From the sequence record GU815339.1: a DNA stretch of 16,945 nt. One strand, written 5' to 3'. Below, piece by piece: positions 941 through 16,945 of the stretch. The notes under the pieces were generated by a model. It did no database searches, was not told where the DNA came from, and saw nothing but the letters and a program-made list of their open reading frames with translations. This DNA is from Enterococcus phage EFRM31. A program made the position numbers and the translations under genes. The first letter of the stretch is position 1; each line of letters begins with the position of its first letter.

Positions 941-976
941 TATTATTCCTCCTATTTGTTTTTGCTTTACTTCTAT

Positions 977-985
977 ATTATAGCA
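977..985 (-). promoter_or_regulatory. leftward promoter, extended -10 (TGCTATAAT on minus strand)
   Basis: Plus-strand ATTATAGCA at 977-985 is the reverse complement of TGnTATAAT. Positioned upstream of the minus-strand operon. No clear -35. Confidence 0.4.
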
Positions 986-1043
986 TACTTATTTGTAGTT
1001 TAGGGAATAGATTAACCATTAATCGAAACCATTTAATGATAAA

Positions 1044-4313: not shown

Positions 4314-4342
4314 AATGTCATAAGATATTAGGAGGAATAATA

Positions 4343-5929
4343 ATGGTAAATGAATTACAAAAAGTTGAATATGACCAACCAGTGGAATTAAGCTTTATCA
4401 GCACGCTTGAAAAGACTTTGACACCTAGCAAGCAATATATCAAAGCACTAAAGGAGTATGAAAAGGATCACAAAGAGTGGGAAGTGGACTTCAAAAATGG
4501 AGATGTGGCTAAGAATGCAGAACCACAACGACCAGAACCAACATATGATGGCTTAAACGCAGAAGCCTTAGCTGTTCACATGGCTAAGGTGTTGCCAGTA
4601 CACGCAAGTTCTACAATTGGTTTACCAGTTGTTTACAACCATGACACAAAAATTTATGAGGTATCAGAGGACAATTTAGAAGCTCGTTTATGGCAAAAGC
4701 TTTACAATGAATTTATGATGGTCTACACACCACATTATGCAGAAAATGCAAAGGTTGCTAACCAATTTAGAAATGCAGTCCAAAGAATGGCAAAAAATGC
4801 GCTTGCTTCTGGTGCTAACTTACCATTTAATGACAAAATGGACCCAAATAAGATTGCATTTAAAAATGGGACATATCGCTTTAAAGAGGACACATTAAAA
4901 CCAACGGTAAAAGAGGACTACCAAACAACAAGAATTGAATATGATTATATTGATAATCCTAAACACAATATCGTTGCTGAATGGATTGAGTACATTTTAG
5001 AAGAGGACGCAAAAACACTATTTCAATTGATTGGACGTATTTTCTACCGCAACCAAGACCCACAAGCAATGGTATTTGCAACTGGTGAAGGTAGTAACGG
5101 TAAATCGCATGTAATGAGCTTCATTGAGGACCTAGTAGGTAAATCAAATACAAGTCATGCAACACTAGCTAGCTTGTCAGGTAATAATGACAAATTCGCA
5201 AGCTCTCAATTATTTGGTAAAATGGTAAATATTGAAACTGATATGCCAGCGCAACACATTAAGCAAACAGGTACACTGAAAACATTGTCAGGTAATGACG
5301 TAATGAGTGCAGAGTATAAAGGTATTAACAAGTTCACATTTACGAACTACGCACTAATGATTTTCACAACTAATAACATGCCTACTTTTTCAGACACTTC
5401 ACATGGTTTCTTGCGCCGTATTATCACGCTTCCATTTAACAAGACCATGGGAAGAGATAACCCAACAGATTCAATGTGGCTAGAACGTTCAAAGAATTTC
5501 ACATATGAAGAAAAGTCAGAGTTTATCAGCTACTGTCTGCAACAATATAGAAATGTATTGTTTGGGCTAAATGGAGAAACAAAAGGGCAGTTCTGGACCA
5601 GTGATAATGCAAATAAATTACGTGACGCATTTATCCAAGGAAATGACACAATGGCTAACTTTATTGAATTGAATGAACTTGAATTTACAAACAATATTGA
5701 TGATGTAATTCCAAATACAGAATTATTAGAAGCATATAACACTATGTTACGTGAAGAGAATCTAATGGAAGTATCAGCCAAGAAGTTCATTCCAGAATTG
5801 AAACGTAAAGCACAATCAGAAAACATTATTCTTAGTGTAATTACTAAGCGTGTTGATGGAAGAGTACAACGTTGTACAACTAACGTGAGATGGAAAACCA
5901 ATACCTCTGAAACAGATAATATTTTTTAA
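4343..5929 (+). CDS. DNA helicase / primase-associated NTPase, D5_N + SF3 (phage/plasmid primase P4-family C-terminal domain)
   Basis: Walker A GEGSNGKS. Motif pattern of the D5/P4 SF3 NTPase family (FTTN, RR finger region). 528 aa. No recognisable primase (AEP/DnaG) catalytic motifs seen by eye. Confidence 0.85.
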   Translation: MVNELQKVEYDQPVELSFISTLEKTLTPSKQYIKALKEYEKDHKEWEVDFKNGDVAKNAEPQRPEPTYDGLNAEALAVHMAKVLPVHASSTIGLPVVYNHDTKIYEVSEDNLEARLWQKLYNEFMMVYTPHYAENAKVANQFRNAVQRMAKNALASGANLPFNDKMDPNKIAFKNGTYRFKEDTLKPTVKEDYQTTRIEYDYIDNPKHNIVAEWIEYILEEDAKTLFQLIGRIFYRNQDPQAMVFATGEGSNGKSHVMSFIEDLVGKSNTSHATLASLSGNNDKFASSQLFGKMVNIETDMPAQHIKQTGTLKTLSGNDVMSAEYKGINKFTFTNYALMIFTTNNMPTFSDTSHGFLRRIITLPFNKTMGRDNPTDSMWLERSKNFTYEEKSEFISYCLQQYRNVLFGLNGETKGQFWTSDNANKLRDAFIQGNDTMANFIELNELEFTNNIDDVIPNTELLEAYNTMLREENLMEVSAKKFIPELKRKAQSENIILSVITKRVDGRVQRCTTNVRWKTNTSETDNIF

Positions 5930-5937
5930 AATAATTT

Positions 5938-5975
5938 AAAGAAAGTTGACTAAAACAGTTGACTTTCTTTTTTTC
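5938..5975 (+). terminator. rho-independent terminator (AAAGAAAGT/ACTTTCTTT + T8) containing tandem AGTTGACT x2
   Basis: Seen in sequence. Duplicate of the 4265-4301 cassette. Confidence 0.55.
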
Positions 5976-5987
5976 GCATGGTATACT
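5959..5987 (+). promoter_or_regulatory. promoter TTGACT-17-TATACT; leader TTCATAAGTTAAGAGGAGGAATTAAACAATG
   Basis: Seen in sequence; consensus spacing. Confidence 0.55.
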
Positions 5988-6018
5988 TAGTTCATAAGTT
6001 AAGAGGAGGAATTAAACA

Positions 6019-6186
6019 ATGACAATCAAAATAGGTAATGAAGTAATGGGTGTTAAAGAATGGTCAGGAAATGGATTAATCAAAGGACATAAATATGTTA
6101 TCAAAGATATTGACAGTAACATTGAAGAAGGTTTAAAGTATGTTGTACGTGATTCATCAGGTTATTTCTGGGTGTGGGATTGGTAA
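6019..6186 (+). CDS. 55-aa hypothetical protein (MTIKIGNEVMGVKEWSGNGLIKGHKYVIKDIDSNIEEGLKYVVRDSSGYFWVWDW)
   Basis: Not in ORF track (under 60 aa). Perfect RBS and the conserved leader shared with the 6283 gene. Confidence 0.5.
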   Translation: MTIKIGNEVMGVKEWSGNGLIKGHKYVIKDIDSNIEEGLKYVVRDSSGYFWVWDW

Positions 6187-6223
6187 ATAGAAAAAATTAA
6201 TTTAAAAAGTTAATAAAAAGGGG

Positions 6224-6252
6224 TTGACAAACTTCTAAAAGCTTGATATAAT
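6224..6252 (+). promoter_or_regulatory. strong promoter TTGACA-17-TATAAT with extended -10 (TGATATAAT)
   Basis: Seen in sequence. AAAAGGGGTTGACAA shared with the promoter at 6482. Confidence 0.6.
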
Positions 6253-6282
6253 CAATTCATAAGTTAAGGGAGGAATTAAACA

Positions 6283-6471
6283 ATGACAACTAAAGAAAAA
6301 TACGAAAACAAATTACAAAAATTAAACGAAAGATTTGACAAATTAAAAGCTGAAATGATTGAAGCATACGACAAAGGAGATAACGAAAAAGGACATGAAC
6401 TAAACGATAGACTAGAAAACATGTTAGATGTGATTTTACTAACTGAAACAGTATTAGAAAACTTAAAATAA
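6283..6471 (+). CDS. hypothetical coiled-coil small protein
   Basis: ORF track. Leader and RBS identical to the 6019 gene. Confidence 0.55.
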   Translation: MTTKEKYENKLQKLNERFDKLKAEMIEAYDKGDNEKGHELNDRLENMLDVILLTETVLENLK

Positions 6472-6485
6472 AATCAGAAAAGGGG

Positions 6486-6514
6486 TTGACAAGTTCAGCC
6501 CCAACTGATATACT
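6486..6514 (+). promoter_or_regulatory. promoter TTGACA-17-TATACT (TGATATACT extended -10)
   Basis: Seen in sequence. Confidence 0.55.
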
Positions 6515-6543
6515 TAATTCATAAATTAAAAGGAGGATATGAG

Positions 6544-7005
6544 ATGGACTTTCAAATTGGAACAGTAAAGAAAACACAAGGACAAGTAAAGAAACACATT
6601 ACGCAATGTACTACACAAGAGAAAGAACAACTAAACAAAGCAAAAGACAGAGTGAAAGACTTGTGGTTAAAGCGTGGTATAAAAACAGGGTATCACTTAC
6701 AAGATAAAATAAGAAACGGTGAAACTAAATTTTCATATCTGCGAGCAATGGAAGCAATGATACATGGTGAAATTATTGAATATAACGAAACAGGTGCAGA
6801 TAAACGTGTTTTGATTCGTTCAGGAATTGGGCATGTAGGTGAATCTATTGATGATATAGTAGTACAATGTATAGTGGTTTCTCTATTTAGCGGTAAAGTA
6901 ATTACAAGCTATTTAAACAAAGCTAGTGATAGACATAAGACACTTGACCCAAGGCGATATAATAAAAATTTAAAAATTAATTTACCAAAACACTTGACAA
7001 AATAA
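6544..7005 (+). CDS. hypothetical protein (153 aa); 3' end contains the next promoter
   Basis: ORF track. RBS AAAGGAGGATATGAGATG. Confidence 0.55.
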   Translation: MDFQIGTVKKTQGQVKKHITQCTTQEKEQLNKAKDRVKDLWLKRGIKTGYHLQDKIRNGETKFSYLRAMEAMIHGEIIEYNETGADKRVLIRSGIGHVGESIDDIVVQCIVVSLFSGKVITSYLNKASDRHKTLDPRRYNKNLKINLPKHLTK

Positions 7006-7022
7006 AAACAATCATTTATACT
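6994..7022 (+). promoter_or_regulatory. promoter TTGACA-17-TATACT, followed by a second TATATAAT
   Basis: Seen in sequence. AAAACACTTGACA shared with 3067. Confidence 0.5.
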
Positions 7023-7053
7023 AAGTATATAATCAATTAGGAGGAATAAATAA

Positions 7054-7326
7054 ATGAAACATAAAGGATTAATCATTGGATTGGCAGTAGGATTGAGTTT
7101 TTCAGGAAGTACAGCAATGTTGGCAAACAACTTAAACAAGCAGAAATTGAATGAAGCTAAACAGGAATTACACTTATACAAAGAATTGAATGAACGTCAA
7201 CAAGATATTATTTTAGAGTATAAAGTAGTATCAGGAATTGAAGTATCAAGTATCACAAAAACATTAGACAATAAAGAGTTAATCAAAGAATTAGAAAAAC
7301 GAATTAACAAATTGGAGGATAAATAA
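7054..7326 (+). CDS. small exported/anchored coiled-coil protein (N-terminal signal-peptide-like segment)
   Basis: ORF track. N-terminus MKHKGLIIGLAVGLSFSGSTAMLA followed by a heptad-like KELNE repeat region. Confidence 0.55.
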   Translation: MKHKGLIIGLAVGLSFSGSTAMLANNLNKQKLNEAKQELHLYKELNERQQDIILEYKVVSGIEVSSITKTLDNKELIKELEKRINKLEDK

Positions 7327-7327
7327 A

Positions 7328-7489
7328 ATGAATGAAAATATGGAAGTTTTAACGGCAATTTTAGTGGCAAATTTAGTAGGTATTTTAACAATTGTATTCA
7401 CAACGTCAAGTGACGCTGGTTTAGTATCTTGGTTAGTATCATTCGCATTAACATTCTTAGCAATTCAAACATTTACGGAGGTTGAATAA
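7328..7489 (+). CDS. 53-aa membrane protein (MNENMEVLTAILVANLVGILTIVFTTSSDAGLVSWLVSFALTFLAIQTFTEVE)
   Basis: Not in ORF track. Starts 2 nt after the upstream stop. RBS TTGGAGGATAAATAAAATG. Confidence 0.45.
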   Translation: MNENMEVLTAILVANLVGILTIVFTTSSDAGLVSWLVSFALTFLAIQTFTEVE

Positions 7490-7490
7490 C

Positions 7491-7700
7491 ATGAATTTAT
7501 TACAAGCGTATGAAGTGGTTGACAGTCATTTTTTAGTAGTGAAAGAATCAAATGGTATGACTGCATTAGTAATTGACACAACAAGCGACAAGTCAGTAGC
7601 ACGATTATTTAATAAATATAATGAGTTGACAAAGGTATTAAATATCAGTTACAATGAATCATGGGGCGGAATTGAATTAGTAATTGGAGAGGAAGAATAA
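7491..7700 (+). CDS. hypothetical small protein
   Basis: ORF track frame (7482..7700). ATG at 7491 with GGAGG 10 nt upstream preferred over TTG 7482. Confidence 0.55.
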   Translation: MNLLQAYEVVDSHFLVVKESNGMTALVIDTTSDKSVARLFNKYNELTKVLNISYNESWGGIELVIGEEE

Positions 7701-7702
7701 TA

Positions 7703-7894
7703 ATGAAAACAGAACGTATTATTGCAATTGACAATATTTTGAATGAACTGGAAAATGATTTCAGAAGTAAAGGTGTTTCACAAGATGACATAGAAAAGTA
7801 TGCAACATACACAGTATTAGCAATGTTAGGTGTATTTTCTCAAAATAATATTGATGTAGAAAAAGCCATTGAAGTATTGACAAATATGTTATAA
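7703..7894 (+). CDS. hypothetical acidic small protein
   Basis: ORF track. RBS GGAGAGGAAGAATAATAATG. Confidence 0.55.
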   Translation: MKTERIIAIDNILNELENDFRSKGVSQDDIEKYATYTVLAMLGVFSQNNIDVEKAIEVLTNML

Positions 7895-7919
7895 GGTAAT
7901 AAAAAAGGTGGTTCAAACC

Positions 7920-8294
7920 ATGGGAAGAGAAGCTAACTTTAGTAGAGAAGTTGTAAAGTATTTGAAGAGTAGAGGTGCATTAGTAAACGTCAATACAGCA
8001 AACATATATGACCGCGTTGGACGTGCAGACATTGAAGCATGTTATAAAGGTTATTATATCGCTTTAGAATTGAAAACAGGTAACTACAAAGCTGATAAAT
8101 TACAAATACGATATTTACAAGAAATTAGATGTGCTGGTGGATATGGGCTATTATTAAGAGATACGCTAGATGATTTAGAGGACCTATTACTTCACTTAGA
8201 CCAGATGGATAATGGTGTGGAATATCCATACACATATGAACAACCAGATTTACCAGAAATAAATTATGACGAATTGGAGATTGACTATGATTGA
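7920..8294 (+). CDS. VRR-NUC-like PD-(D/E)xK nuclease
   Basis: ORF track frame (7908 GTG; ATG 7920 with AAGGTGG RBS). D...E-L-K arrangement (GRADIEA ... IALELKTG) typical of VRR-NUC phage nucleases. Context: next to helicase. Confidence 0.55.
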   Translation: MGREANFSREVVKYLKSRGALVNVNTANIYDRVGRADIEACYKGYYIALELKTGNYKADKLQIRYLQEIRCAGGYGLLLRDTLDDLEDLLLHLDQMDNGVEYPYTYEQPDLPEINYDELEIDYD

Positions 8295-8787
8295 AGAATG
8301 GAAAGATATTAAAGGTTATGAGGGTTTATATCAGGTTAGTAACTTAGGTAGAGTGAAGAGTTTAAAGTTTGGTAAAGAACGGATATTGAAGACAGGTGTA
8401 GACCGTTATGGATACATATCTGTTAATTTATATAAAAATAACAAAAGAAAACTATGTAAAGTCCACCGCTTAGTAGCTCAAGCATTCATACCAAACCATG
8501 AAAATAAACCACAAGTAAACCATATTGATGAAGATAAAACAAATAACATGGTTTCCAATCTTGAATGGGTTACAGCTAAGGAGAATGTAAATCATGGTAC
8601 ACGTAATGATAGAGTTTCAAAAGCAGTCAAGGTTATTGATATTGCAAACGGTGAATATAATTACTATAATTCAATCAATGAATGTGTAAGACAACTTGGA
8701 CTCCATCAAGGTAATGTCGTTAGTTGCTTAAAAGGTAGACGTAAAACATGCGGTGGATACACCTTTAAATATAAGGAGGTGGACTAA
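8287..8787 (+). CDS. HNH endonuclease, NUMOD4 + HNH_3 (homing-endonuclease-type)
   Basis: N-terminus MIEEWKDIKGYEGLYQVSNLGRVKS (NUMOD4 signature) and HNH_3 core (VHRLVAQAF...NHIDEDKTNN...NLEWVT). Start 8287 overlaps the VRR-NUC stop by 8 nt. Stop abuts the terS ATG. Confidence 0.85.
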   Translation: MIEEWKDIKGYEGLYQVSNLGRVKSLKFGKERILKTGVDRYGYISVNLYKNNKRKLCKVHRLVAQAFIPNHENKPQVNHIDEDKTNNMVSNLEWVTAKENVNHGTRNDRVSKAVKVIDIANGEYNYYNSINECVRQLGLHQGNVVSCLKGRRKTCGGYTFKYKEVD

Positions 8788-9261
8788 ATGGCACGACCAC
8801 GAAAATTAATCAACGCAACAAACAAACACTATACTGAAGAAGAACGTATTCAAAAACAAAAAGAAGAAAAAAAATTGTACAGCTACGAACCTTTAGACTT
8901 TTCATATTTTCCAATGGGGTTATTACGAGGTGCTTATGCAGAATGGGAACGAATTGGTAACTTCGTAGGAGATTTACCACTAAGTGAGTTAGATTCGCAG
9001 ACACTTGTTTCTTACTGTAACTATGTTTACTTATACAGTAAACTAGCAGAAGAGGTTTCTATTGAGGGTGAAGTGACAGAAGATGGAAAGCTAAACCCCA
9101 AAGTAACCGCAATGATGGGTTATAGTAAGCAAATCAAAAGCGCAACTAATGACTTAGGTTTAACTATCAATTCAAGATTGAAACTGGTAGCACCAAAAGA
9201 AGTAGAGGACGAAAGCAAAGACCCACTAGGTCAATTGCTTAAAATGCGTACACAAGCATAA
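8788..9261 (+). CDS. terS: terminase small subunit, P27 family
   Basis: N-terminus MARPRK..., size ~157 aa, position immediately upstream of terL. RBS AAGGAGGTGGACTAAATG. Confidence 0.8.
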   Translation: MARPRKLINATNKHYTEEERIQKQKEEKKLYSYEPLDFSYFPMGLLRGAYAEWERIGNFVGDLPLSELDSQTLVSYCNYVYLYSKLAEEVSIEGEVTEDGKLNPKVTAMMGYSKQIKSATNDLGLTINSRLKLVAPKEVEDESKDPLGQLLKMRTQA

Positions 9262-9266
9262 GATTT

Positions 9267-9277
9267 TGTGTTATAAT
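9267..9277 (+). promoter_or_regulatory. extended -10 promoter (TGTGTTATAAT) immediately after terS
   Basis: TGnTATAAT seen in sequence. Weak -35 TACACA 17 bp upstream. A second TATAAT sits at 9315-9320. Confidence 0.45.
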
Positions 9278-9283
9278 GTATTT

Positions 9284-9523
9284 ATGTAAAAGATATTCTA
9301 TATTATTTGTATAGTATAATAATAGCGGGTATTATTATACAGGCGCAACTACTCCAATAGTTGCGGACATGTTAGCTAAAGTGTTGTGAGGAACGCCGTA
9401 TACAGAAGGTCCGCTAACTGTATAACAACACTTTAGCATTAAAGAATGGTTGCTGTGCGACCAATTGACTTAGGTAAGTTTGTTATCCCCTTTGGATAAA
9501 CTCATGACCTAAGTCTTTTTATT
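9284..9523 (+). ncRNA. candidate structured non-coding RNA (~240 nt) between terS and terL
   Basis: Own promoter and own terminator. Four strong hairpins: 9314-9340 (11-bp AT stem, GCGGG loop), 9344-9365 (8 bp), 9375-9437 (13-bp + 7-bp stems with 11-nt bulge), 9467-9515 (terminator). No ORF above 17 codons. No tRNA-like T-loop. Confidence 0.4.
9467..9523 (+). terminator. rho-independent terminator (GACTTAGGT...ACCTAAGTC long imperfect stem + TTTTTATTT)
   Basis: Seen in sequence. Confidence 0.6.
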
Positions 9524-9534
9524 TGTGCTATAAT
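9524..9534 (+). promoter_or_regulatory. extended -10 promoter (TGTGCTATAAT) for terL
   Basis: TGnTATAAT 22 nt upstream of the terL ATG at 9556. Confidence 0.5.
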
Positions 9535-9555
9535 AATGATAAGGAGGTAATACAT

Positions 9556-11280
9556 ATGAATAATATTGATTATGTACAAGACTATATAGACTACGTAAAA
9601 GAAAATCAAATACCAATAGGTAATAAAATCAAACAAGCTATTAGACGACATGAAAAAGATTTAGAGAAGTCAAAAGACCCAGACTATCCATATTACTATG
9701 ACCCTAAAGAAGCATTAGAACCAGTGGTTTTTATTGAAATGCTACCAGACCCAAAGACACGCAAAACAAATAAGCTAGCTAAGTTCCAGAAGTTTATTAT
9801 TGCAATGATATATGGGTGGCGCAAAAAGAAAAACGGAATGCGCAGATTCAGAAAAGTATATATCAGTTTAGCACGTAAGAACGGAAAATCTATTCTGGTT
9901 GCTGGTATCTCACTATACGAGTTTCTATTAGGTCAATATCCACAGGCAAGCCGTCAGATAGTCGCCGCCGCCAACACCAAAGACCAAGCAGGTATTGTAT
10001 TCAACATGTTAAAATCACAGCTAAAGGCATTGCGTGCAGTAAGTGATGGAACAAGGAAAGTAACCAAAGTTAATAAGAAAGACATTGAACACTTAGAAGA
10101 TGAATCAACGGTTAAGCCACTATCAAGTGATGCAGATAGCTTAGACGGACTAGACGTGCTATGTGGTGTACTTGATGAGTATGGAGAAGCTAAAAGCACA
10201 GCCATGATTGAGGTATTAGAAAGTTCACAGTCACAACAATTACAAGGTTTAATTTTGATTATTAGTACAACAACCAAAAACTTGAATGGACCAATGCACA
10301 GCATAGAATACCCATTTATAACTAAGCTACTTAATGAGGAAGTGGAAGCTGATGCTTACCTTGCATTGTGTTGGGAAATGGATAGCCTAAGTGAAGTAGA
10401 TGATGAAGCTAACTGGATTAAGAGTAACCCATTATTTGAGAATGCACAGTTACATGAAACAATGTACGAACATAAGGTTAACTCATTAGCAGAGTATAAG
10501 GCTAAGGGTGACATGAGTGGTTGGCTAACTAAAGAGATGAACTTCTGGGTACAATCATCACAAGACAGTTTCATTGATAAAGAATCTTGGGAAGCTGTTA
10601 AACAAACACAACCGTATGACATAAAAGGTAGACCAGTTTATATAGGGCTGGATTTGGCACGTACAGGCGATATGACGGCTGTTAGTTGGGTGATACCTAT
10701 TGCAGAGGAACGCAAGCTACTTCTTGACAGTCACGCTTTTATAGCCTCTGTGGGCGGTATTGAAGCTAAACAGATAAAAGATAAGATACCGTATAGACAG
10801 TATGAGAACTTAGGACTAGTAAACATCAGTCAGCGACCAGATGGTTTGATAGACCATGAAGATATGTGCGAATGGATAAGAGAGTTCATAACAGAGTATG
10901 ACTTAGACCTACAAGGTATTTACTATGACGGACACCAAGCAACACCATCTGTAATCAACTTAAGCAAGGACTTTCCAGACAAACTAATTGAAGTACCACA
11001 GCGCATCCAGTATTTAAATGCACCTACAAAGTACTTACGTGATGCAATTATCAAGGGTGAAGTGATTCAAACAGATAACCCACTACTAACTAGAGCGGTA
11101 TATAATGCTATTATGCGTGAGTTTGCGGACAATATAGCTATTGAAAAGGCTATGAATCGTAACAAAATTGACCCTATAGATGCCTTAATTAATGCAATGA
11201 GTGAAGCAATGTACTTTGATTATGAGTATATTAGCTTTAAAGAACTGATTGAAGAAGGTAAATTTGGATTTGGTGTATAA
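9556..11280 (+). CDS. terL: terminase large subunit (Terminase_1-type ATPase + nuclease)
   Basis: Walker A SLARKNGKS. Length ~575 aa. ATG 9556 with AAGGAGGT RBS preferred over the track start 9523. Gene order. Confidence 0.9.
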   Translation: MNNIDYVQDYIDYVKENQIPIGNKIKQAIRRHEKDLEKSKDPDYPYYYDPKEALEPVVFIEMLPDPKTRKTNKLAKFQKFIIAMIYGWRKKKNGMRRFRKVYISLARKNGKSILVAGISLYEFLLGQYPQASRQIVAAANTKDQAGIVFNMLKSQLKALRAVSDGTRKVTKVNKKDIEHLEDESTVKPLSSDADSLDGLDVLCGVLDEYGEAKSTAMIEVLESSQSQQLQGLILIISTTTKNLNGPMHSIEYPFITKLLNEEVEADAYLALCWEMDSLSEVDDEANWIKSNPLFENAQLHETMYEHKVNSLAEYKAKGDMSGWLTKEMNFWVQSSQDSFIDKESWEAVKQTQPYDIKGRPVYIGLDLARTGDMTAVSWVIPIAEERKLLLDSHAFIASVGGIEAKQIKDKIPYRQYENLGLVNISQRPDGLIDHEDMCEWIREFITEYDLDLQGIYYDGHQATPSVINLSKDFPDKLIEVPQRIQYLNAPTKYLRDAIIKGEVIQTDNPLLTRAVYNAIMREFADNIAIEKAMNRNKIDPIDALINAMSEAMYFDYEYISFKELIEEGKFGFGV

Positions 11281-11310
11281 AGAGTGCTTTAACTAGCACT
11301 CTTTTTTCTA
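11281..11310 (+). terminator. rho-independent terminator (AGAGTGCT/AGCACTCT + T6) directly after terL stop
   Basis: Seen in sequence. Confidence 0.6.
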
Positions 11311-11349
11311 TTGTTTTGTGGTAAAATGGGGTATATAGGAGGGGTAAAT

Positions 11350-11514
11350 ATGCAAAATCCGGTATTGTTAGTAGTAATTTTCTACGTTTTAGGTATGCTA
11401 TCACTAGTCACAGCAATGTTTTTCACTGGTTTAGTAGCTGGTTTAGTAGCCTTAGCAGTAGCATTATTAATTCCATCAGTAATCTTATACAAAGAATTGG
11501 GAGAAGGTGAATAA
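11350..11514 (+). CDS. 54-aa membrane protein (2 TM) inserted between terL and portal
   Basis: ORF track frame (11311..11514). ATG 11350 with AGGAGGGG RBS. Extended -10 TGGTAAAAT at 11319-11327 upstream. Very hydrophobic. Confidence 0.45.
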   Translation: MQNPVLLVVIFYVLGMLSLVTAMFFTGLVAGLVALAVALLIPSVILYKELGEGE

Positions 11515-11518
11515 TTAA

Positions 11519-12670
11519 ATGGGAGTTTTTGTCGCACCTAGAAGCACAACAAAGCAGAACTTCATTGACTTTATCGAAAGCAGTGACATTTATTCAACAG
11601 AAATCACAGGTGAAAAGGCATTACGTAATTCAGACATTTTCACAGGTATCAACATTATTAGTGGTGACTTAGGACAGTCAAAATTTAGACCAACTAAGAA
11701 TAGTGAAGCTGATGAACAATTTCTAAAAATGATTAACAAACGACCAAACAATAAACAAAGTCATTACATGTTCATGTACGCAACAGTAGCAAACTTGATT
11801 CTAAGCGGTAACTCATATGCATTAATCCACAGAGATAAATTAGGAGTAGTTGAGAGCTTGGAGTTTGTAAAACCTGAACAAGTAAATGTAATCCAAAACG
11901 TTACAACAGGCGAATGGTCGTATGATGTAACAATGGAGTATGGTAGCATTATGTACAAATGTACACCAGAAGATATTTTGCACTTTAGAATTACAACTGT
12001 AGATGGTTTCCTTGGTAGAAGTCCTTTACTATCATTGAAAGATGAAGTAGCTATGCAGTCAAACGGTAGTAAGATTTTAAGCAAGTTCTTTGCCAACGGT
12101 GTATTTGGAGGAGGTATCTTAAAACTAAAAGGCGGTTACGTTGACAACGAAACAAAAGCAAAAATCAGACAGGACTTTGAAAAGGCAAACGGTGGTAGCA
12201 CTAACAGTAATGGCGTTATTGTCTTAGACGAATCAACAGAGTTCCAAGAATACAAAATGAATACTGATATTCTTAAACTGATTCAAGGTAACAAGTTTAG
12301 TACACAACAGATTGCAAAAGTATTAGGTATTCCATTGAACCGCTTTGGTATGGAATTAGTAAACTCTACAGATAGTGGTGCAAATGACATCTATATTGCT
12401 TCAACTATTAGCCAATATGAAAGAGCTATCTGTGATGAAATTGAAATTAAAACAGGTAACGAGTTAGAATTAGACCTCACAACATTATTAAATGATACCT
12501 ATGAAGATAGACGTAAACGAGTTTTTGAAGGTAAACAGAATAATGAGTTGCTAAAAGCAATTAAGACTAACGAAATTCGTGACTATTTAGGTTATGCAGA
12601 TGTTGAAGAAGGTGAAGAATTAATGAAAGTAGATGAAAAAGAAGGAGTGTCAGCAAGTGAAGAATCTTGA
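11519..12670 (+). CDS. portal protein, HK97 family
   Basis: 383 aa. Motif pattern typical of HK97-family portals. Position between terL and prohead protease. Confidence 0.9.
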   Translation: MGVFVAPRSTTKQNFIDFIESSDIYSTEITGEKALRNSDIFTGINIISGDLGQSKFRPTKNSEADEQFLKMINKRPNNKQSHYMFMYATVANLILSGNSYALIHRDKLGVVESLEFVKPEQVNVIQNVTTGEWSYDVTMEYGSIMYKCTPEDILHFRITTVDGFLGRSPLLSLKDEVAMQSNGSKILSKFFANGVFGGGILKLKGGYVDNETKAKIRQDFEKANGGSTNSNGVIVLDESTEFQEYKMNTDILKLIQGNKFSTQQIAKVLGIPLNRFGMELVNSTDSGANDIYIASTISQYERAICDEIEIKTGNELELDLTTLLNDTYEDRRKRVFEGKQNNELLKAIKTNEIRDYLGYADVEEGEELMKVDEKEGVSASEES

Positions 12671-13220
12671 AATTAGACAACTACAACAGGTTGAAACAGT
12701 AACAGACAATATTGTTGAAGGCTACGCTTTAAAGTTTGATTCACCTAGTGAAAACTTAGGTGGATTCATTGAGTTCATAGATAAGCGTGCATTAGATGGT
12801 GTTGATATGAGTGACGTTCGTATGTTCGTTGACCATGATTCAAGTAAGTTATTAGGACGGACAAAGAGTGGAACATTAACATTAGAGGTTGACGACATTG
12901 GTTTAAAATTTAGAGCATTACTTCCTGATACATCAGTTGGACGTGATGCAATGGAACTAGTTAAACGCGGTGACCTTAGTCAGTGTTCGTTTGGATTCAC
13001 AGTTGCTAAAGATGAATGGCGCAAAGCTGATGGAATAAATCACAGAACTATCAAACAAATCAAGTCACTATTTGAAATCTCACTGGTTTCAATTCCAGCA
13101 TATGCAGACACAGATGTTAGTGTGGCTAAACGTTCATTAGAACAAATGGAAGAGGAAGCAAAACAATTTCAAAAGCGTAAACTAGAATTAGAATTAAACC
13201 TATTAGGGTTATACAAGTAA
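12633..13220 (+). CDS. prohead protease, HK97 family (S78)
   Basis: Conserved EGYA..FD, H-D..LG and S-GF motifs. Overlaps portal 3' end; alternative GTG start at 12657. Confidence 0.8.
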   Translation: MKKKECQQVKNLEIRQLQQVETVTDNIVEGYALKFDSPSENLGGFIEFIDKRALDGVDMSDVRMFVDHDSSKLLGRTKSGTLTLEVDDIGLKFRALLPDTSVGRDAMELVKRGDLSQCSFGFTVAKDEWRKADGINHRTIKQIKSLFEISLVSIPAYADTDVSVAKRSLEQMEEEAKQFQKRKLELELNLLGLYK

Positions 13221-13242
13221 CACCCACAAGTTCCCTTGTTCG

Positions 13243-13280
13243 TGATATACTATCTTTAGTAAGAAAAATAATATTAAAGG
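13243..13280 (+). promoter_or_regulatory. late-gene upstream element TGATATACT (extended -10-like) + CTTTAGTAAGAAAAATAATATTAAAGG leader, shared with the major tail gene
   Basis: Near-identical element at 16303-16342. Confidence 0.45.
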
Positions 13281-13289
13281 GGTGTGCGT

Positions 13290-14537
13290 ATGTCACGGCA
13301 AGAACTTATGGAACAAGCACAAACTTTATTATCAGAAGGTAAACTTGATGAAGCTGAAAAAGTAATGCAACAAATTAAAGCTTTAGATGAGGAAAAACCT
13401 AAAGAAGAAGAACGTGCAGTTGATAATAAAGAAGAGGAGAAACCAGAGGAAGAACCTAAAGCAGAAGATGCTAAGGACGAACCAAAGGAAGAACCTAAAG
13501 AAGATAAGGAAGAAACAAAAGAAGAACGTTCAGCAAAAACTGAACAAGATTTTGAAGAACCTAAAGAGGAACCAAAGGAAGAACCTAAAACAGAAAAACG
13601 CTCACTAGAGCAAAAAGGAGAAGAAAACATGGAGAAAGTTATTTTAGATGGAAAAGAAGTAGAAAATAAAGAAGTGCGTGGATTCTTAGAATACTTACGC
13701 TCAAAAGAAACACGTGCATTGCCTGAATCATTTGAAGGTGTTAAGTCTGCGGATGCATCAGCAATTATCCCAGAAGAAATCATCACAAAAGCTAAAATGT
13801 TACCTGAAACAGTTGTTGACTTACGTAATATGGTTACACGTCAAAAAGTAACAAATGCTATGGGTAAATATCCAATCTTGAAAGCTAATGAAGCCGTGTT
13901 GGCATCAGTTGAAGAACTTAAAAAGAACCCTGATTTAGAAGGACCAGCTTTCGAAGAAGTCAAATATGAAGTTGAAACTTACCGTGGTCAAATTGCAGTA
14001 GCAGAAGAAGCTTTACAAGATTCTGATGATGACTTATCTGGAATCATTGCACGTCACATTCAACGTCAAGGTTTGAACACAGCTAACAAAGCTATCGTTA
14101 CTAAATTAAAAACAGCAACAGCAGTAGCCGCAACATCAATTGATGACTTGAAAACACAAGTTAACACTGGTTTTGACCCAGCTTACAACTTAGAGTTTAT
14201 TGTTTCTCAATCATTCTTTAACGCTTTAGACCAAATGAAAGACGCTAACGGTCGTTACTTACTAGAAGATGACATCAAAGCACCATCTGGTAAATCTCTA
14301 TTAGGACGTAAAGTAACTGTTTTAGCTGATAAATTAATTGGTACAGTAGACGGTGACAAAGTAGCATTCTTAGGACAACCTGATGCATTCGCAGTCTTCT
14401 TCGACCGCGTAGACACAACTGTACGTTGGGTTGAGCATCAATACTTCGGTCAAGTATTAGCAGTAGCTATGCGCTTTGACTGTGAAGTCGTTGATAAAAA
14501 CGCTGGTAAATATATCACTTTAACACCAGCACCCTAG
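13290..14537 (+). CDS. major capsid protein, HK97 family, with charged KEEPK-repeat N-terminal (delta/scaffold-like) domain
   Basis: C-terminal two thirds typical HK97-fold MCP. ATG 13290 with AAAGGGGTG RBS (track 13284 is GTG). Follows protease. Confidence 0.9.
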   Translation: MSRQELMEQAQTLLSEGKLDEAEKVMQQIKALDEEKPKEEERAVDNKEEEKPEEEPKAEDAKDEPKEEPKEDKEETKEERSAKTEQDFEEPKEEPKEEPKTEKRSLEQKGEENMEKVILDGKEVENKEVRGFLEYLRSKETRALPESFEGVKSADASAIIPEEIITKAKMLPETVVDLRNMVTRQKVTNAMGKYPILKANEAVLASVEELKKNPDLEGPAFEEVKYEVETYRGQIAVAEEALQDSDDDLSGIIARHIQRQGLNTANKAIVTKLKTATAVAATSIDDLKTQVNTGFDPAYNLEFIVSQSFFNALDQMKDANGRYLLEDDIKAPSGKSLLGRKVTVLADKLIGTVDGDKVAFLGQPDAFAVFFDRVDTTVRWVEHQYFGQVLAVAMRFDCEVVDKNAGKYITLTPAP

Positions 14538-14562
14538 TACGCCACCTGTGGTAGGGCAGGTG
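14532..14562 (+). other. putative recoding (programmed +1 frameshift / shifty-stop) element: CCC UAG UACGCCACCUGU + hairpin CACCUG-UGGUAGGG-CAGGUG
   Basis: Identical 18 nt at the 3' end of the major tail gene (16916-16933). +1 frame is open for 21 codons (STPPVVGQVTPAETSATIELS) to TAA at 14599. Confidence 0.5.
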
Positions 14563-14606
14563 ACACCAGCTGAAACATCAGCAACAATTGAATTATCGTA
14601 AACACT

Positions 14607-14640
14607 AAGAGGTGGGGCATTCGCCTTACCTCTTTTTAAA
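14607..14640 (+). terminator. rho-independent terminator (AAGAGGT...ACCTCTT + T5)
   Basis: Seen in sequence. Begins just after the stop of the +1 extension frame. Confidence 0.6.
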
Positions 14641-14662
14641 CTATAAAAGGAGAGTGTAAATT

Positions 14663-14863
14663 ATGGCTAAAGTATTTAACGTATACAAGAAAACAGGTAA
14701 AAAGATTGTGACTGGACAACCCTCACCAGTAACAATCACTGGTTTAACAGCAGAAACACCATATAGTAAAGGTGATTTTCAAGTAACAGCTATTGAAGAT
14801 GGAAAACCCGAGTCTAGTAAAGTAGATGTACCAGCATTCACTACAACTGCAACAGCTGGATAA
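14663..14863 (+). CDS. small hypothetical protein, possibly Ig/FN3-like (beta-strand-rich VTITGLTAET...FQVTAIEDGK)
   Basis: ORF track. RBS AAAAGGAGAGTGTAAATTATG. Bracketed by terminators. Confidence 0.5.
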   Translation: MAKVFNVYKKTGKKIVTGQPSPVTITGLTAETPYSKGDFQVTAIEDGKPESSKVDVPAFTTTATAG

Positions 14864-14865
14864 TA

Positions 14866-14888
14866 AAAGAGGGTTAAGCCCTCTTTTT
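14866..14888 (+). terminator. rho-independent terminator (AAAGAGGG-TTAAG-CCCTCTTT + T5)
   Basis: Seen in sequence. Confidence 0.6.
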
Positions 14889-14906
14889 AACTAAGGAGGT
14901 ATGATA

Positions 14907-15203
14907 ATGTTAACATTAGCAGAAGTAAAAAACAATCTAAGATTAGACTATGATTTTGATGATACCTACCTACAAGGACTGATTGATACGAGTGAACTAT
15001 TCATCTTAGGAGCTATTGAGTTAAAGACCGCACCAGATGATAAACGATTCAAGACATTACAGTTCATGTTGGTTTCATTATGGTATGAAAACAGAGTACC
15101 AGCAACAAGCGCATTACAACAACAAGTACCCTTTACAATCGTAGCAATGATTCATCAATTAAGGGGGTTACAAGATGCCACTGATACCAACACAACGACT
15201 TGA
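14907..15203 (+). CDS. head-tail connector protein (gp6-like / DNA-packaging connector)
   Basis: N-terminus MLTLAEVKNNLRLDYDFDD...LIDTSE typical of the gp6-like family. ATG 14907 with AAGGAGGT RBS. Confidence 0.8.
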   Translation: MLTLAEVKNNLRLDYDFDDTYLQGLIDTSELFILGAIELKTAPDDKRFKTLQFMLVSLWYENRVPATSALQQQVPFTIVAMIHQLRGLQDATDTNTTT

Positions 15204-15510
15204 CAGAAAGATAAGTATCCAACATAAAACCACTCATAAGAACGAATATTATGAGTGGGTCACTGATTGGGAAACCAAGGCCACTATATGGTGTTCAGTA
15301 AAACAACAGTATTTCAAAGACTATAAAGAATCATTAGGTACTGTTTTAGAGGATACAACAAACTTCATTATCAGATACGAACAACAGATTCATATTGACA
15401 ATACTATGCGTGTTGTATACAACGGTGTTAACTATGACATCATACAAGTATTAGAAGGTAGCTTCCAACGTGACTTTACAACGCTTGTATGTAAGAGGGT
15501 GAAGGAATGA
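15175..15510 (+). CDS. head closure / head-tail adaptor protein
   Basis: Size ~110 aa. RxxxISIQ motif pattern. Position after gp6-like gene. Confidence 0.7.
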   Translation: MPLIPTQRLDRKISIQHKTTHKNEYYEWVTDWETKATIWCSVKQQYFKDYKESLGTVLEDTTNFIIRYEQQIHIDNTMRVVYNGVNYDIIQVLEGSFQRDFTTLVCKRVKE

Positions 15511-15914
15511 GTAGTCCAAACTACGTTGACTTTTCACAAGTCTACAAGCGATTAGAAAAAAGCGGTAAAAAGGCTGACCTAATTGTTAGTAAGGCAGTGA
15601 ATACAGCTGGTGAAAAAGCAATGAATGAACTAAAGCAAAATACACCACGTTTTAACGGCACAAAGTATAGTAGGGATGGTCAGGACTACAAAAAAGAACA
15701 TATGCGTGACCATGTTGTAATGAGTAAAGCAAATAAGAATAACCATATAGCAGAAGTTGGCTTTGATGATGATGTGGCATGGATGGCACACTTTCCAGAG
15801 TTAGGAACAATCAAACAACGACCACAAGGGTTTATACAAAAAACAATAAACAGTATTGAGAGTGAAGTTGCATCAATCATTCAAAAAGCATTACAGGAGG
15901 CGTTTCTAAAATGA
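15507..15914 (+). CDS. HK97 gp10-family tail/neck protein
   Basis: Size ~135 aa. Conserved AWMAHFPE-G region and C-terminal QKALQEA pattern typical of gp10-like. Gene order. Confidence 0.7.
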   Translation: MSSPNYVDFSQVYKRLEKSGKKADLIVSKAVNTAGEKAMNELKQNTPRFNGTKYSRDGQDYKKEHMRDHVVMSKANKNNHIAEVGFDDDVAWMAHFPELGTIKQRPQGFIQKTINSIESEVASIIQKALQEAFLK

Positions 15915-16276
15915 GACTACCCATATTACAAGTAGCAGAAGCTTTAGAGCAAGCACACCCAGAAGTCAACTGGTTTACTAATGAAGTACCCACTGAATTT
16001 CAAACATTACCACAATTACCAGTAGGTAGAATTGTAGAACTTGACGGACGGTACACAGAATATGCCAGTGCAGACCCTAATTATTTTGTAACACATGTTC
16101 AGGTGGATTTGTGGTGTGAGGACTTGAAAGAAGTTGAAAAGTATTACTTTGAAATTGACAAGACCATGCGTGCAGATAATGTGCAGTGCGTATTATCACA
16201 ACAATCGTACGACCCAGACCTAGAGGGTGCACGTAGGGTTATCAAACGTTACACAATCAGTCAAAGAGTTGTCTAA
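15911..16276 (+). CDS. tail terminator-like / tail-tube junction protein (gp11-like position)
   Basis: Position immediately before the major tail protein; ~120 aa. Confidence 0.55.
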   Translation: MRLPILQVAEALEQAHPEVNWFTNEVPTEFQTLPQLPVGRIVELDGRYTEYASADPNYFVTHVQVDLWCEDLKEVEKYYFEIDKTMRADNVQCVLSQQSYDPDLEGARRVIKRYTISQRVV

Positions 16277-16302
16277 GTGACACCCTAAAACACGTTGATT
16301 AA

Positions 16303-16342
16303 TGATATAATTATTCTAGTAAGAAAATATAAACACTAAAGG
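16303..16342 (+). promoter_or_regulatory. late-gene upstream element TGATATAAT + TTCTAGTAAGAAAATATAAACACTAAAGG leader (copy 2)
   Basis: Matches the element upstream of the capsid gene. Confidence 0.45.
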
Positions 16343-16354
16343 AGAGAAACAATT

Positions 16355-16921
16355 ATGGCAGTAGTAGGTTTTAAGAAAGCTATTATCAGCGTACCTAAAG
16401 CAGAAGGTTCTGGCGTTGATAAATACACAATTGATAAAAGCGGTGGCGGTACTATTGAAGCGTCAATTAAAGGAATTTCAGCAGAACAAACAACCGTTTA
16501 TGCGTCAAACGTTCCAATTTGGGTATCAGCTAAAGGGGTTGGAGAGTTAACAGCTTCATTAAACGTATTTGACTTGTATAAAGACAACGTTTATGAGAAA
16601 ATTTTAGGTATTGAACGTGGTGAAGATGGTATTGCAATCGTTGGTGAAGATACAGAAGCACCTTACGTTTCAGCAGTATTTGTTGCAGACGGTGCAGACG
16701 GTAAAGAAATGTACTTTGGTTTAGTTAAAGGACGTTTCAGCCACCCAGAAATCGCATTGAATACAACAGAATCTGGTGGTACAGAACCAAACACAGAAAC
16801 AATTGAAGGTTCATTTGTAACAGATTCACGTGGCTTTGCATACATGAGTGCTGTTTCAAGCGAAACATTAACACTTGATAAGTTTGTTGACAAAGTAAAC
16901 AATATTAATCCATTGCCCTAG
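16355..16921 (+). CDS. major tail protein (siphovirus tail tube, TP901-1/phi13-like)
   Basis: 188 aa. Gly/Ser/Thr-rich beta protein after neck genes. RBS AAAGGAGAGAAACAATTATG. Confidence 0.85.
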   Translation: MAVVGFKKAIISVPKAEGSGVDKYTIDKSGGGTIEASIKGISAEQTTVYASNVPIWVSAKGVGELTASLNVFDLYKDNVYEKILGIERGEDGIAIVGEDTEAPYVSAVFVADGADGKEMYFGLVKGRFSHPEIALNTTESGGTEPNTETIEGSFVTDSRGFAYMSAVSSETLTLDKFVDKVNNINPLP

Positions 16922-16945
16922 TACGCCACCTGTCCTACCACAGGT
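16916..16945 (+). other. second copy of CCC UAG UACGCCACCUGU recoding element + hairpin (CACCUGU-CCUACC-ACAGGUG); runs off the window
   Basis: Identical 18 nt as at the capsid gene end. +1 frame open (STPPVLPQ...) to the window edge. Confidence 0.5.

What the first reader, a model, noticed from the sequence alone, without database searches (positions are those of the whole stretch)
13221..13289. Shared upstream late element on the capsid and tail genes (TGATATA(A/C)T ... CTAGTAAGAAAA ... AAAGG)
The capsid and major-tail genes are each preceded by a ~45-nt conserved segment (13243-13280 and 16303-16342). It has an extended -10-like TGATATACT/TGATATAAT, then (C)T(T)TAGTAAGAAAA(A)TA...AAAGG, leading into the RBS. 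Neither copy has a good -35. Together with the shared 3' element, these two genes look like self-contained, separately boosted expression units inside the late operon. This suggests either a dedicated late promoter (possibly activator- or sigma-dependent) or a conserved 5' UTR processing or stability element.
Basis: seen in the sequence. Interest (0 to 1): 0.55.

Follow-up and report, generated by a model that had tools for sequence, protein, structure and literature searches.

The report
Internal promoters before phage capsid and tail genes
The repeated sequence in front of the capsid and tail-tube genes of this Enterococcus phage is real and conserved, and is most likely an ordinary host-type promoter that gives each abundant virion protein its own short messenger RNA.

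Summary
TGATATAMT-N5-TAGTAAGAAAA occurs exactly twice in the window, at 13243-13267 and 16303-16327, against 0.03 expected by chance. Each copy lies 30-45 nt upstream of the capsid or major-tail start codon.

The window is an Efquatrovirus, 99.8% identical to Enterococcus phage vB_EfS_L1. Relatives carry a third copy just past the window end, in front of the gene between the tail-tube and tape-measure genes.

Across 71 distinct upstream regions from three clades (capsid identity down to about 53%), the footprint looks like a promoter:
- an invariant CACAA at -33 to -29;
- a variable 13-nt spacer;
- an invariant TGnTATAaT;
- five variable bases;
- an A/G-rich start region, (T)AG(T/A)AAGAAA.

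TGnTATAAT without a -35 box is the standard Enterococcus sigma-70 promoter. It is found at 96-98% of mapped starts, and only about 4% have a -35 box. So the missing -35 does not by itself imply a special factor.

Strong terminators follow the capsid and tail genes, so these are self-contained transcription units. I found no stable RNA fold, no Rfam match and no recognisable phage sigma factor or activator.

Two features remain unexplained: the strictly conserved CACAA box and the conserved start region. They leave room for a lineage-specific factor. No transcript ends have been mapped in this phage group.

The parts
13220..13229 (+). Upstream box ACACCCACAA of the capsid copy. The core CACAA (13225-13229) sits at about -33 to -29, where the 3' part of a -35 hexamer would be.
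   Evidence: Sequence. CACAA is invariant or nearly so in 71 distinct upstream regions, always 13 nt before the TG.
13230..13242 (+). 13-nt spacer with fixed length and variable sequence.
   Evidence: Column conservation is only 0.3-0.6 across relatives, and the length is always 13.
13243..13251 (+). Extended -10 element TGATATACT (TGn + TATACT) of the capsid promoter.
   Evidence: T, G and TATA.T are invariant in 71 of 71 sequences. It matches the Enterococcus consensus tgnTAtaaT (PMC7724050).
13257..13271 (+). Conserved start region TAGTAAGAAAAATAA. The predicted transcription start is A13258, 7 nt after the -10 element. This position is inferred, not mapped.
   Evidence: The 5' UTR to ATG 13290 would be 32 nt, within the host's usual 14-42 nt.
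13276..13292 (+). Shine-Dalgarno AAAGGGG and the capsid start codon ATG 13290.
   Evidence: The gene 13290-14537 equals the 1248-nt capsid gene of vB_EfS_L1.
14607..14639 (+). Intrinsic terminator closing the capsid unit: a 12-bp stem followed by UUUUU.
   Evidence: The fold is -19.2 kcal/mol with z = -5.5. The sister clade has a different hairpin plus T-run at the same place.
16280..16289 (+). Upstream box ACACCCTAAA of the tail copy. Its core is CTAAA here, and CACAA in other clades and alleles.
16303..16311 (+). [quoted passage not shown]
16317..16331 (+). Conserved start region TAGTAAGAAAATATA. The predicted start is A16318, giving a 37-nt 5' UTR to ATG 16355.
16338..16357 (+). Shine-Dalgarno AAAGGAG and the major-tail start codon ATG 16355.
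959..1005 (-). A looser member of the same family, in front of the three-gene operon that starts at 940 on the minus strand: CCCTAAA-N13-TGCTATAAT-ATAGA-AGTAAAGCAAAAA.
   Evidence: PhagePromoter predicted the orthologous site in vB_EfaS-271.
9251..9277 (+). A promoter of the same CACAA class, CACAA-N13-TGTTATAAT, at the end of the small-terminase gene.
   Evidence: The orthologous site is conserved in IME-EFm5.

Best explanation
The shared element is a family of internal promoters read by the host RNA polymerase with its main sigma factor (sigma-70/SigA), chiefly through an extended -10 element, TGnTATAAT. Transcription probably starts at the A of TAGTAAG, near 13258 and 16318. That would give short, unstructured, A-rich leaders of 32 and 37 nt running into strong ribosome-binding sites.

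Each promoter pairs with a strong intrinsic terminator after its gene. The capsid and tail-tube genes are therefore made as short, separate messages on top of any read-through from upstream. This suits the two proteins needed in the most copies. A third copy restarts transcription after the tail-gene terminator, for the next gene and the tape-measure gene.

Shown here: the sequence, its statistical excess, its conservation pattern, its match to the host promoter consensus, and the terminators. Inferred: that transcription starts there, that the host sigma factor alone is enough, and that CACAA acts as a weak partial -35 element.
For: - The composite occurs twice in the window against 0.03 expected, and three times in complete relatives.
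- Conservation across 71 distinct upstream regions of three genes and three clades is promoter-shaped. CACAA, TG and TATA.T are invariant at fixed spacing. The 13-nt spacer and the five bases after the -10 element vary.
- The boxes persist where the downstream tail-gene allele or the upstream neighbour gene has been replaced, in L009, L014, L017, L023, L027 and L032.
- Host dRNA-seq found tgnTAtaaT at 96-98% of Enterococcus transcription starts, a -35 box at only about 4%, and 5' UTRs mostly 14-42 nt (PMC7724050).
- Almost every intergenic gap of the structural arm, in two clades, carries TGnTATAAT, often directly after a terminator hairpin. TGNTATAMT is enriched: 19 found against 6.3 expected in L002.
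- The third copy lies immediately after a terminator, so the downstream genes need re-initiation.
- The terminator after the capsid gene is strong, at -19.2 kcal/mol with z = -5.5.
- The predicted leaders have no stable fold, and there is no Rfam match.
Against: - No transcript 5' ends have been mapped in this phage group. Literature searches found only software predictions, and those missed these three sites.
- No terminator lies between the protease and capsid genes, or between the gene at 15911-16276 and the tail gene. Read-through could supply these genes without an internal promoter.
- A plain extended -10 promoter explains neither the strict conservation of C at -33, where a G would make a better -35, nor the conserved +1 to +10 region.
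- The CACAA composite is absent from an unrelated E. faecalis siphophage. It is therefore a feature of this lineage, not of the host.
Confidence: 0.68

Rival explanations
1. These are promoters, but of a distinct phage-specific class. On this reading CACAA at -33 to -29, possibly with the conserved start region, is bound by an unidentified phage protein. That protein could be an activator or a sigma-remodelling factor of the T4 MotA/AsiA type. It would switch the promoters on at middle or late times, so they would be weak or silent in uninfected cells.
For: - CACAA is invariant at a fixed position across paralogous sites and clades, although a G at -33 would improve a normal -35.
- CACAA-N13-TGNTATAMT occurs exactly 5 times in L002 and 7 times in L015, against fewer than 0.5 expected even allowing one mismatch.
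- The rightward early/replication arm uses canonical TTGAC(A/T)-17-TGnTATAMT in all but one case. The structural arm has no canonical -35 box apart from an HNH gene insert.
- The composite is absent from the unrelated E. faecalis phage IME-EF1.
- Precedents exist for late promoters with a long -10 and no -35 in Gram-positive phages, for example Kayvirus (PMC7698491).
Against: - No sigma, RinA, ArpU, Alt, MotA or AsiA-like family was detected in about 36 ORFs scanned with Pfam and PHROGs.
- The one ORF labelled as a transcriptional regulator (3613-3834) has no detectable counterpart in the sister clade, which keeps the CACAA promoters.
- Host promoters normally lack a -35 box, so no extra factor is required.
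- CACA lines up with the GACA of TTGACA at the correct 17-bp spacing, so it may simply be a partial -35.
- One CACAA site drives a gene of the replication arm, and another is antisense. The class is therefore not strictly late.
Confidence: 0.2
2. The conserved part acts at the RNA level, within read-through late mRNA. TAGTAAGAAAA... would be a ribonuclease processing site, a stabilising 5' end or a translation enhancer, and the TGnTATAAT resemblance would be incidental.
For: - The +1 to +10 region is more conserved than the neighbouring spacers.
- No terminator lies upstream of the capsid and tail copies, so read-through RNA containing the element must exist.
- In read-through RNA, the capsid intergenic region can fold at -23.9 kcal/mol (z = -3.4), pairing 13227-13251 with the start-codon region. 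That could make cleavage or a separate start useful.
Against: - The most conserved bases (CACAA, TG, TATA.T) and their fixed 13-nt spacing fit DNA recognition by RNA polymerase, not an RNA motif.
- No conserved structure is present. Leader z-scores are +0.55, -0.50 and +0.80, and the tail region scores +1.84.
- The capsid hairpin is absent from the sister clade, and substitutions in L005 and L010 break pairs without compensation.
- There is no Rfam match.
- The third copy lies after a terminator, where little read-through RNA would exist.
Confidence: 0.07
3. The similarity is mainly historical. The flanks of the capsid and tail genes were duplicated or homogenised by recombination, and they serve as module boundaries for gene exchange rather than being individually selected signals.
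For: - The capsid and third copies share an identical 20-mer, ATCTTTAGTAAGAAAAATAA, including the otherwise variable five bases.
- The 3' flanks of the capsid and tail genes are also about 97% identical over about 70 nt.
- Allele and neighbour-gene replacements break exactly at these elements.
Against: The spacers between the boxes have diverged to near-random identity, about 38%, while the boxes stay invariant in clades whose capsids are only about 53-57% identical. That pattern indicates purifying selection on the boxes. A boundary role is compatible with promoter function and does not replace it.
Confidence: 0.05

Closest known systems
Enterococcus sigma-70 (SigA) extended -10 promoters, tgnTAtaaT (dRNA-seq maps of E. 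faecalis and E. faecium, PMC7724050)
   Same: A TGn directly before a near-perfect TATAAT and no canonical -35 box. The predicted 5' UTRs of 32-37 nt fall in the host's usual 14-42 nt range. The ribosome-binding site is of the aGGaGg type.
   Different: These are phage-borne and internal to the structural gene arm. They carry a strictly conserved CACAA at -33 to -29 and a conserved A/G-rich start region, neither of which is reported as part of the host consensus. No transcription start has been mapped here.
Late promoters of Staphylococcus Kayvirus vB_SauM-515A1 (TGTTATATTA, no -35; PMC7698491)
   Same: Two promoter classes in one phage. Early promoters have strong -35/-10 elements, and promoters of the morphogenesis genes have a TG-extended -10 and no -35. 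Several late promoters and terminators divide the structural region into units.
   Different: The Kayvirus box is TGTTATATTA with a TT extension and was attributed to a phage-specific sigma factor. Here the box is the host-type TGnTATAAT, and there is an additional CACAA box.
Phage T4 middle promoters (MotA box near -30 plus a sigma-70 -10; from general knowledge, not tested here)
   Same: A good -10 element, often TG-extended, combined with a conserved non-sigma box that takes the place of the -35 element.
   Different: No MotA or AsiA homologue was detected. The box sequence is unrelated. CACA can also be read as the 3' half of TTGACA.
Single activator-dependent late promoters of Gram-positive temperate phages (RinA, ArpU, LtrC/Alt superfamily; PMC3152322, PMC3753634)
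   Same: They control morphogenesis genes in phages of Firmicutes.
   Different: Those systems use one promoter upstream of terS and a recognisable activator gene. Here there are about ten promoters along the arm and no such activator.

Membership tests
Sigma-70/SigA extended -10 promoter (Enterococcus type) | TG one base upstream of a -10 hexamer that matches TATAAT in at least 5 of 6 positions | tested here: met
   TGATATACT at 13243 and TGATATAAT at 16303. Invariant in 71 of 71 relatives.
Sigma-70/SigA extended -10 promoter (Enterococcus type) | Intergenic, on the gene strand, at a 5' UTR distance typical for the host | tested here: met
   Both copies lie between a stop codon and the next start codon. 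The predicted UTRs are 32 and 37 nt, against the host's 14-42 nt.
Sigma-70/SigA extended -10 promoter (Enterococcus type) | Evolutionary conservation of the boxes and their spacing, with variable spacers | tested here: met
   Footprint. Orthologous sites in IME-EFm5-like phages.
Sigma-70/SigA extended -10 promoter (Enterococcus type) | Transcription actually initiates there (a triphosphate 5' end about 7 nt after the -10 element) | not testable with these tools
   No transcriptome or start-site map for Efquatrovirus turned up in the literature searches.
Canonical -35/-10 sigma-70 promoter | A TTGACA-like hexamer 16-18 bp upstream of the -10 element | tested here: not met
   CCCACA (3/6) and CCCTAA (1/6) at 17 bp. 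Neither site is listed by the consensus scan. The early-arm promoters of the same phage do meet this feature.
Activator-dependent late promoter (RinA/ArpU/Alt-LtrC type) | The phage encodes a member of the activator superfamily | tested here: not met
   No such Pfam or PHROG family in about 36 ORFs of the window and of L002. Many ORFs have no known family, so a novel activator is not excluded.
Activator-dependent late promoter (RinA/ArpU/Alt-LtrC type) | A single late promoter upstream of terS drives the whole morphogenesis operon | tested here: not met
   About ten TGnTATAAT sites and several terminators are spread along the structural arm.
T4-type middle promoter (sigma appropriation) | A conserved non-sigma box centred near -30 that replaces the -35 element, together with a good -10 | tested here: inconclusive
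   CACAA at -33 to -29 is invariant, but it also aligns with the GACA of TTGACA at 17-bp spacing.
T4-type middle promoter (sigma appropriation) | The phage encodes an activator/co-activator pair (MotA/AsiA-like) | tested here: not met
   No family hits.
Kayvirus-type late promoter | A long -10 box, TGTTATATTA | tested here: not met
   The boxes are TGATATACT(A) and TGATATAAT(T). The hexamer is TATAAT-like, not TATATT.
Structured cis-regulatory RNA or known RNA family | A match to an Rfam model, or a fold significantly more stable than shuffled sequence and conserved in relatives | tested here: not met
   No Rfam match at the element at E-value up to 1. Leader z-scores are +0.55, -0.50 and +0.80. 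The capsid read-through hairpin is not conserved and shows no compensatory changes.

The most novel reading that the evidence does not exclude
The CACAA-N13-TGnTATAAT sites would form a separate, lineage-specific promoter class. There are 5-7 exact copies per genome, at orthologous positions in two phage clades. On this reading CACAA, and perhaps the AGTAAGAAAA start region, is recognised by an as yet unrecognisable small phage protein that redirects host SigA polymerase to the structural genes. That would be a Gram-positive counterpart of T4 sigma appropriation.
Probability: 0.2. Interest if true: 0.55.

Novelty: new member of a known kind. Interest (0 to 1): 0.3.

Why it matters
Efquatroviruses are among the Enterococcus phages most often isolated for therapy, and I found no experimental map of their transcription. 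This analysis yields a testable map: canonical -35/-10 promoters for early genes, and -35-less extended -10 promoters plus terminators that cut the structural arm into units. The capsid and tail-tube genes come out as separately boosted, single-gene messages.

That is useful for annotation, because a published software prediction missed these three sites. It is also useful for engineering, since these are compact, strong, host-readable promoters with short leaders. It helps explain how protein ratios in the virion are set. If the CACAA box turns out to bind a phage factor, it would reveal a new late-gene switch. If not, the element is ordinary.

Tried and rejected
- My first pattern search used the wrong spacing (N3 instead of N5) and found nothing. 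I corrected it.
- The 11-mer TAGTAAGAAAA alone is not significant in the window.
- An exact scan of IMG/VR for TGNTATAMT-N5-TAGTAAGAAAA gave 60 stretches. Most are this phage group. About 18 are unrelated contigs, several with normal TTGAC -35 boxes. By a rough estimate of my own, that number is close to what chance gives in AT-rich DNA. The literal motif is therefore not diagnostic outside the group.
- RNA-structure explanation: rejected. The leaders are unstructured. The one strong fold, in capsid read-through RNA, is clade-specific and has no compensatory changes.
- Rfam: no match at the element.
- Search for a phage sigma factor or late activator: Pfam and PHROGs on about 36 ORFs gave nothing relevant. 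A PDB sequence search with the conserved 128-aa protein at 7908-8294 was uninformative.
- Literature: no transcription-start or transcriptome study of Efquatrovirus was found. A search for the Listeria A511 late promoters found nothing usable.
- I first read the label 'major tail protein (x2)' in database records as an annotated frameshift. It is in fact two separate genes with the same name.

Full report
**What the window is.** Bases 12600-16945 are 99.8% identical to Enterococcus phage vB_EfS_L1, and 95-99.6% identical to IME-EF4, LY0322, AL2/AL3 and other members of the genus Efquatrovirus. The finding lies in the structural gene arm. The protease gene ends at 13220. The capsid gene runs 13290-14537. 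Head-completion genes run 14663-16276. The major tail (tail-tube) gene runs 16355-16921.

**The observation.** The composite TGATATAMT-N5-TAGTAAGAAAA, searched with up to three mismatches, hits only 13243-13267 and 16303-16327. The expectation is 0.03, and none of 200 dinucleotide-preserving shuffles gave two hits. Neither copy has a good -35 hexamer at 17-bp spacing: CCCACA scores 3/6 and CCCTAA 1/6.

- The similarity continues upstream to a 10-mer, ACACCCACAA or ACACCCTAAA, placed exactly 13 nt before the TG.
- Complete genomes of relatives have a third full copy just beyond the window end: ACACCCACAA-N13-TGCTATAAT-ATCTT-TAGTAAGAAAAATAA. It sits in front of the gene between the tail-tube and tape-measure genes, directly after the tail gene's terminator.
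- Looser relatives lie in the window. One is on the minus strand at 1005-959 (CCCTAAA-N13-TGCTATAAT-ATAGA-AGTAAAGCAAAAA). The other is at 9251-9277 (CACAA-N13-TGTTATAAT).

**Conservation pattern.** I collected the regions upstream of the capsid, tail and third genes from 33 loci. These cover Efquatrovirus, the IME-EFm5/EF36P3-like clade and one further lineage (L017), with capsid identity down to about 53-57%. Among 71 distinct sequences anchored on the TG:
- C, A, C, A, A at TG-18 to TG-14 are 100%, 87%, 87%, 100% and 93% conserved.
- The 13 bases that follow are 32-77% conserved.
- T, G and TATA.T are 100% conserved.
- The next five bases are about 50% conserved.
- Then comes (T)AG(T/A)AAGAAA at 76-97%.

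With the -10 hexamer at -12 to -7, CACAA occupies -33 to -29. It lines up with the GACA of a TTGACA placed at the canonical 17-bp spacing.

The boxes survive replacement of the downstream tail-gene allele (L009, L014). They also survive replacement of the upstream neighbour gene (L017, L023, L027, L032). Fixed boxes, fixed spacing and free spacers are the signature of a protein-DNA recognition site of the promoter type.

**Match to the host.** Genome-wide dRNA-seq of E. faecalis and E. faecium found an extended Pribnow box, tgnTAtaaT, at 96-98% of transcription starts. A canonical -35 box appeared at only about 4%. Most 5' UTRs were 14-42 nt, with an aGGaGg ribosome-binding site (PMC7724050). 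The phage elements are perfect or near-perfect instances of this. Starts 7 nt after the -10 element (A13258, A16318) would give leaders of 32 and 37 nt. The missing -35 box is therefore normal for this host and is not in itself a sign of an activator or a special sigma factor.

**Genome-wide context.**
- In vB_EfS_L1, TGNTATAMT occurs 19 times against 6.3 expected.
- On the structural strand almost every intergenic gap carries one, several directly after a terminator hairpin. The gaps are those before terL, portal, capsid, tail, the third gene, Dit and holin, plus the leftward three-gene operon. The same holds in IME-EFm5.
- The early/replication arm uses TTGAC(A/T)-17-TGnTATAMT in repeated cassettes, with one exception noted in the unexplained section.
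- The phage thus has two promoter styles, sorted largely by arm.
- CACAA-N13-TGNTATAMT occurs exactly five times in vB_EfS_L1 and seven times in IME-EFm5, at orthologous places. Fewer than 0.5 are expected even allowing one mismatch.
- An unrelated E. faecalis siphophage, IME-EF1, has none.

**Self-contained units.** A 12-bp hairpin followed by UUUUU comes after the capsid gene at 14607-14639 (-19.2 kcal/mol, z = -5.5). A hairpin followed by a run of six T comes after the tail gene in relatives, immediately before the third promoter copy. The sister clade has different hairpin sequences at the same two positions, which argues for function. The head-completion genes after the capsid terminator have no comparable promoter. 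They presumably rely on partial read-through, which fits their lower copy number. That last point is inference.

**RNA-level alternatives.**
- The predicted leaders do not fold better than shuffled sequence, with z-scores of +0.55, -0.50 and +0.80.
- Rfam gives no match at the element.
- One fold stands out. In read-through RNA, 13227-13251 can pair with 13286-13308, which includes the capsid start codon (-23.9 kcal/mol, z = -3.4).
- That fold is absent from the sister clade. Substitutions in L005 and L010 weaken it without compensation. I treat it as a side observation.

**Is there a dedicated factor?**
- Pfam and PHROG scans of about 36 early, leftward-operon and replication-arm ORFs found no sigma, RinA, ArpU, Alt or MotA/AsiA-like protein.
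- The one ORF labelled 'transcriptional regulator' (3613-3834) has no detectable counterpart in the sister clade, which keeps the CACAA promoters.
- Small proteins of unknown function are conserved between the clades. They include a 235-aa protein that has its own CACAA promoter, and proteins of 74, 67 and 60 aa. A novel factor therefore cannot be excluded.

**What remains unexplained.**
- C at -33 is never replaced by the G that would strengthen a normal -35.
- The first ten transcribed bases are conserved across genes and clades. The early promoters share a related start, CATAAG(A/T)TAA.
- One CACAA site drives a replication-arm gene, and another is antisense.
- These points keep a factor-dependent reading alive at about 0.2.

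**Comparison with known systems.**
- The element works like, and passes the sequence tests for, an Enterococcus-type extended -10 promoter.
- It resembles the two-class arrangement of Staphylococcus Kayvirus, which has early -35/-10 promoters and late TGTTATATTA promoters without a -35 (PMC7698491). The box itself is different.
- It is unlike the single RinA/ArpU/LtrC-dependent late promoters upstream of terS (PMC3152322, PMC3753634).
- The T4 middle-promoter analogy, a box near -30 plus a good -10, is only an analogy.
- A published PhagePromoter table for the Efquatrovirus vB_EfaS-271 lists the leftward-operon, post-terS and Dit promoters. It does not list the capsid, tail or third-gene sites. 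As far as I could find, this three-copy family has not been described.

**Verdict.** The feature is real and conserved. It is most likely a set of internal host-type promoters, so it is a new member of a known kind. Interest is modest at 0.3. Experimental mapping of transcript starts is the decisive missing piece.

Noticed in passing
window 14532-14600 and 16918-16945; L002 minus strand at 21205 and 18821: The capsid and tail genes both end in CCC TAG, followed by about 70 nt that are about 97% identical. Read in the +1 frame after CCC, both encode the same 21-aa tail, STPPVVGQVTPAETSATIEL(S/T). A conserved hairpin, CACCTG...CAGGTG, follows the stop codon. This resembles the +1 frameshift at CCC_UGA in Listeria phages PSA, A118 and A500 (PMC5009743). 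In variant loci, three of five substitutions are synonymous in the +1 frame. None of the records I looked at annotates it as a frameshift.
   Followed up: partly
window around 8298, and 16934-16945: The window is not collinear with any relative. Bases 1-8298 map to the early arm in one orientation, and about 8300-16945 map to the structural arm in the opposite orientation. The junction lies among HNH endonuclease genes. The last 12 bases (CCTACCACAGGT) are the inverted form of the hairpin loop seen in relatives (GGTAGGACAGGT). Together these suggest an assembly or fold-back artefact, or else a rearranged genome.
   Followed up: partly
window 13227-13251 paired with 13286-13308: In read-through RNA, the promoter spacer plus the -10 element can pair with the capsid start-codon region (-23.9 kcal/mol, z = -3.4). 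Transcripts starting at the internal promoter would lack the 5' arm. The fold is absent from the sister clade, and L005 and L010 carry uncompensated changes.
   Followed up: partly
window 9262-9555: An unusually long non-coding gap of about 294 nt separates the small- and large-terminase genes. It is preceded by its own CACAA-N13-TGTTATAAT promoter at 9251-9277 and followed by a second TGCTATAAT at 9526. It might hold a small RNA or the cos/packaging region. Rfam gives no match.
   Followed up: no
window 3054-3126, 4266-4338, 5940-6012, 6201-6267, 6455-6529, 6963-7057: The early region carries repeated promoter cassettes of about 70 nt: AAAAC(A/G)-TTGAC(A/T)-17-TGnTATAMT-N5-CATAAG(A/T)TAAGAGGAGG. 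Each sits in front of a small ORF (families D2-D5 and D14).
   Followed up: partly
L009 9326, L014 5382, L015 27649 (minus strand) and other EFm5-like loci: Divergent tail-tube alleles seem to start at a non-AUG codon (ATA, ATC or ATT) after GAGGAGTGGTTATC or AAGGACGTGATTATT. The annotated GTG in IME-EFm5 lies only 1 nt after the ribosome-binding site.
   Followed up: no
L002 39979 (minus strand) and L015 4693 (minus strand): A CACAA-N13-TG(A/C)TATAAT site points antisense within the early/replication arm and is conserved in both clades. It could drive an antisense RNA.
   Followed up: no
L002 2343-2369 with gene 2416-3123; L015 7796-7822 with gene 7868-8560: A 235-aa protein of unknown function in the replication arm is 59% identical between the clades. 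It has no Pfam family and falls in PHROG 6479 (unknown function). In both clades it has its own CACAA-type promoter.
   Followed up: partly
window 13425-13597: The N-terminal part of the capsid protein is built from imperfect repeats rich in Glu, Lys and Pro (KEEPKEE...). Such repeats are typical of a scaffolding-like delta domain (families D1 and D6).
   Followed up: no
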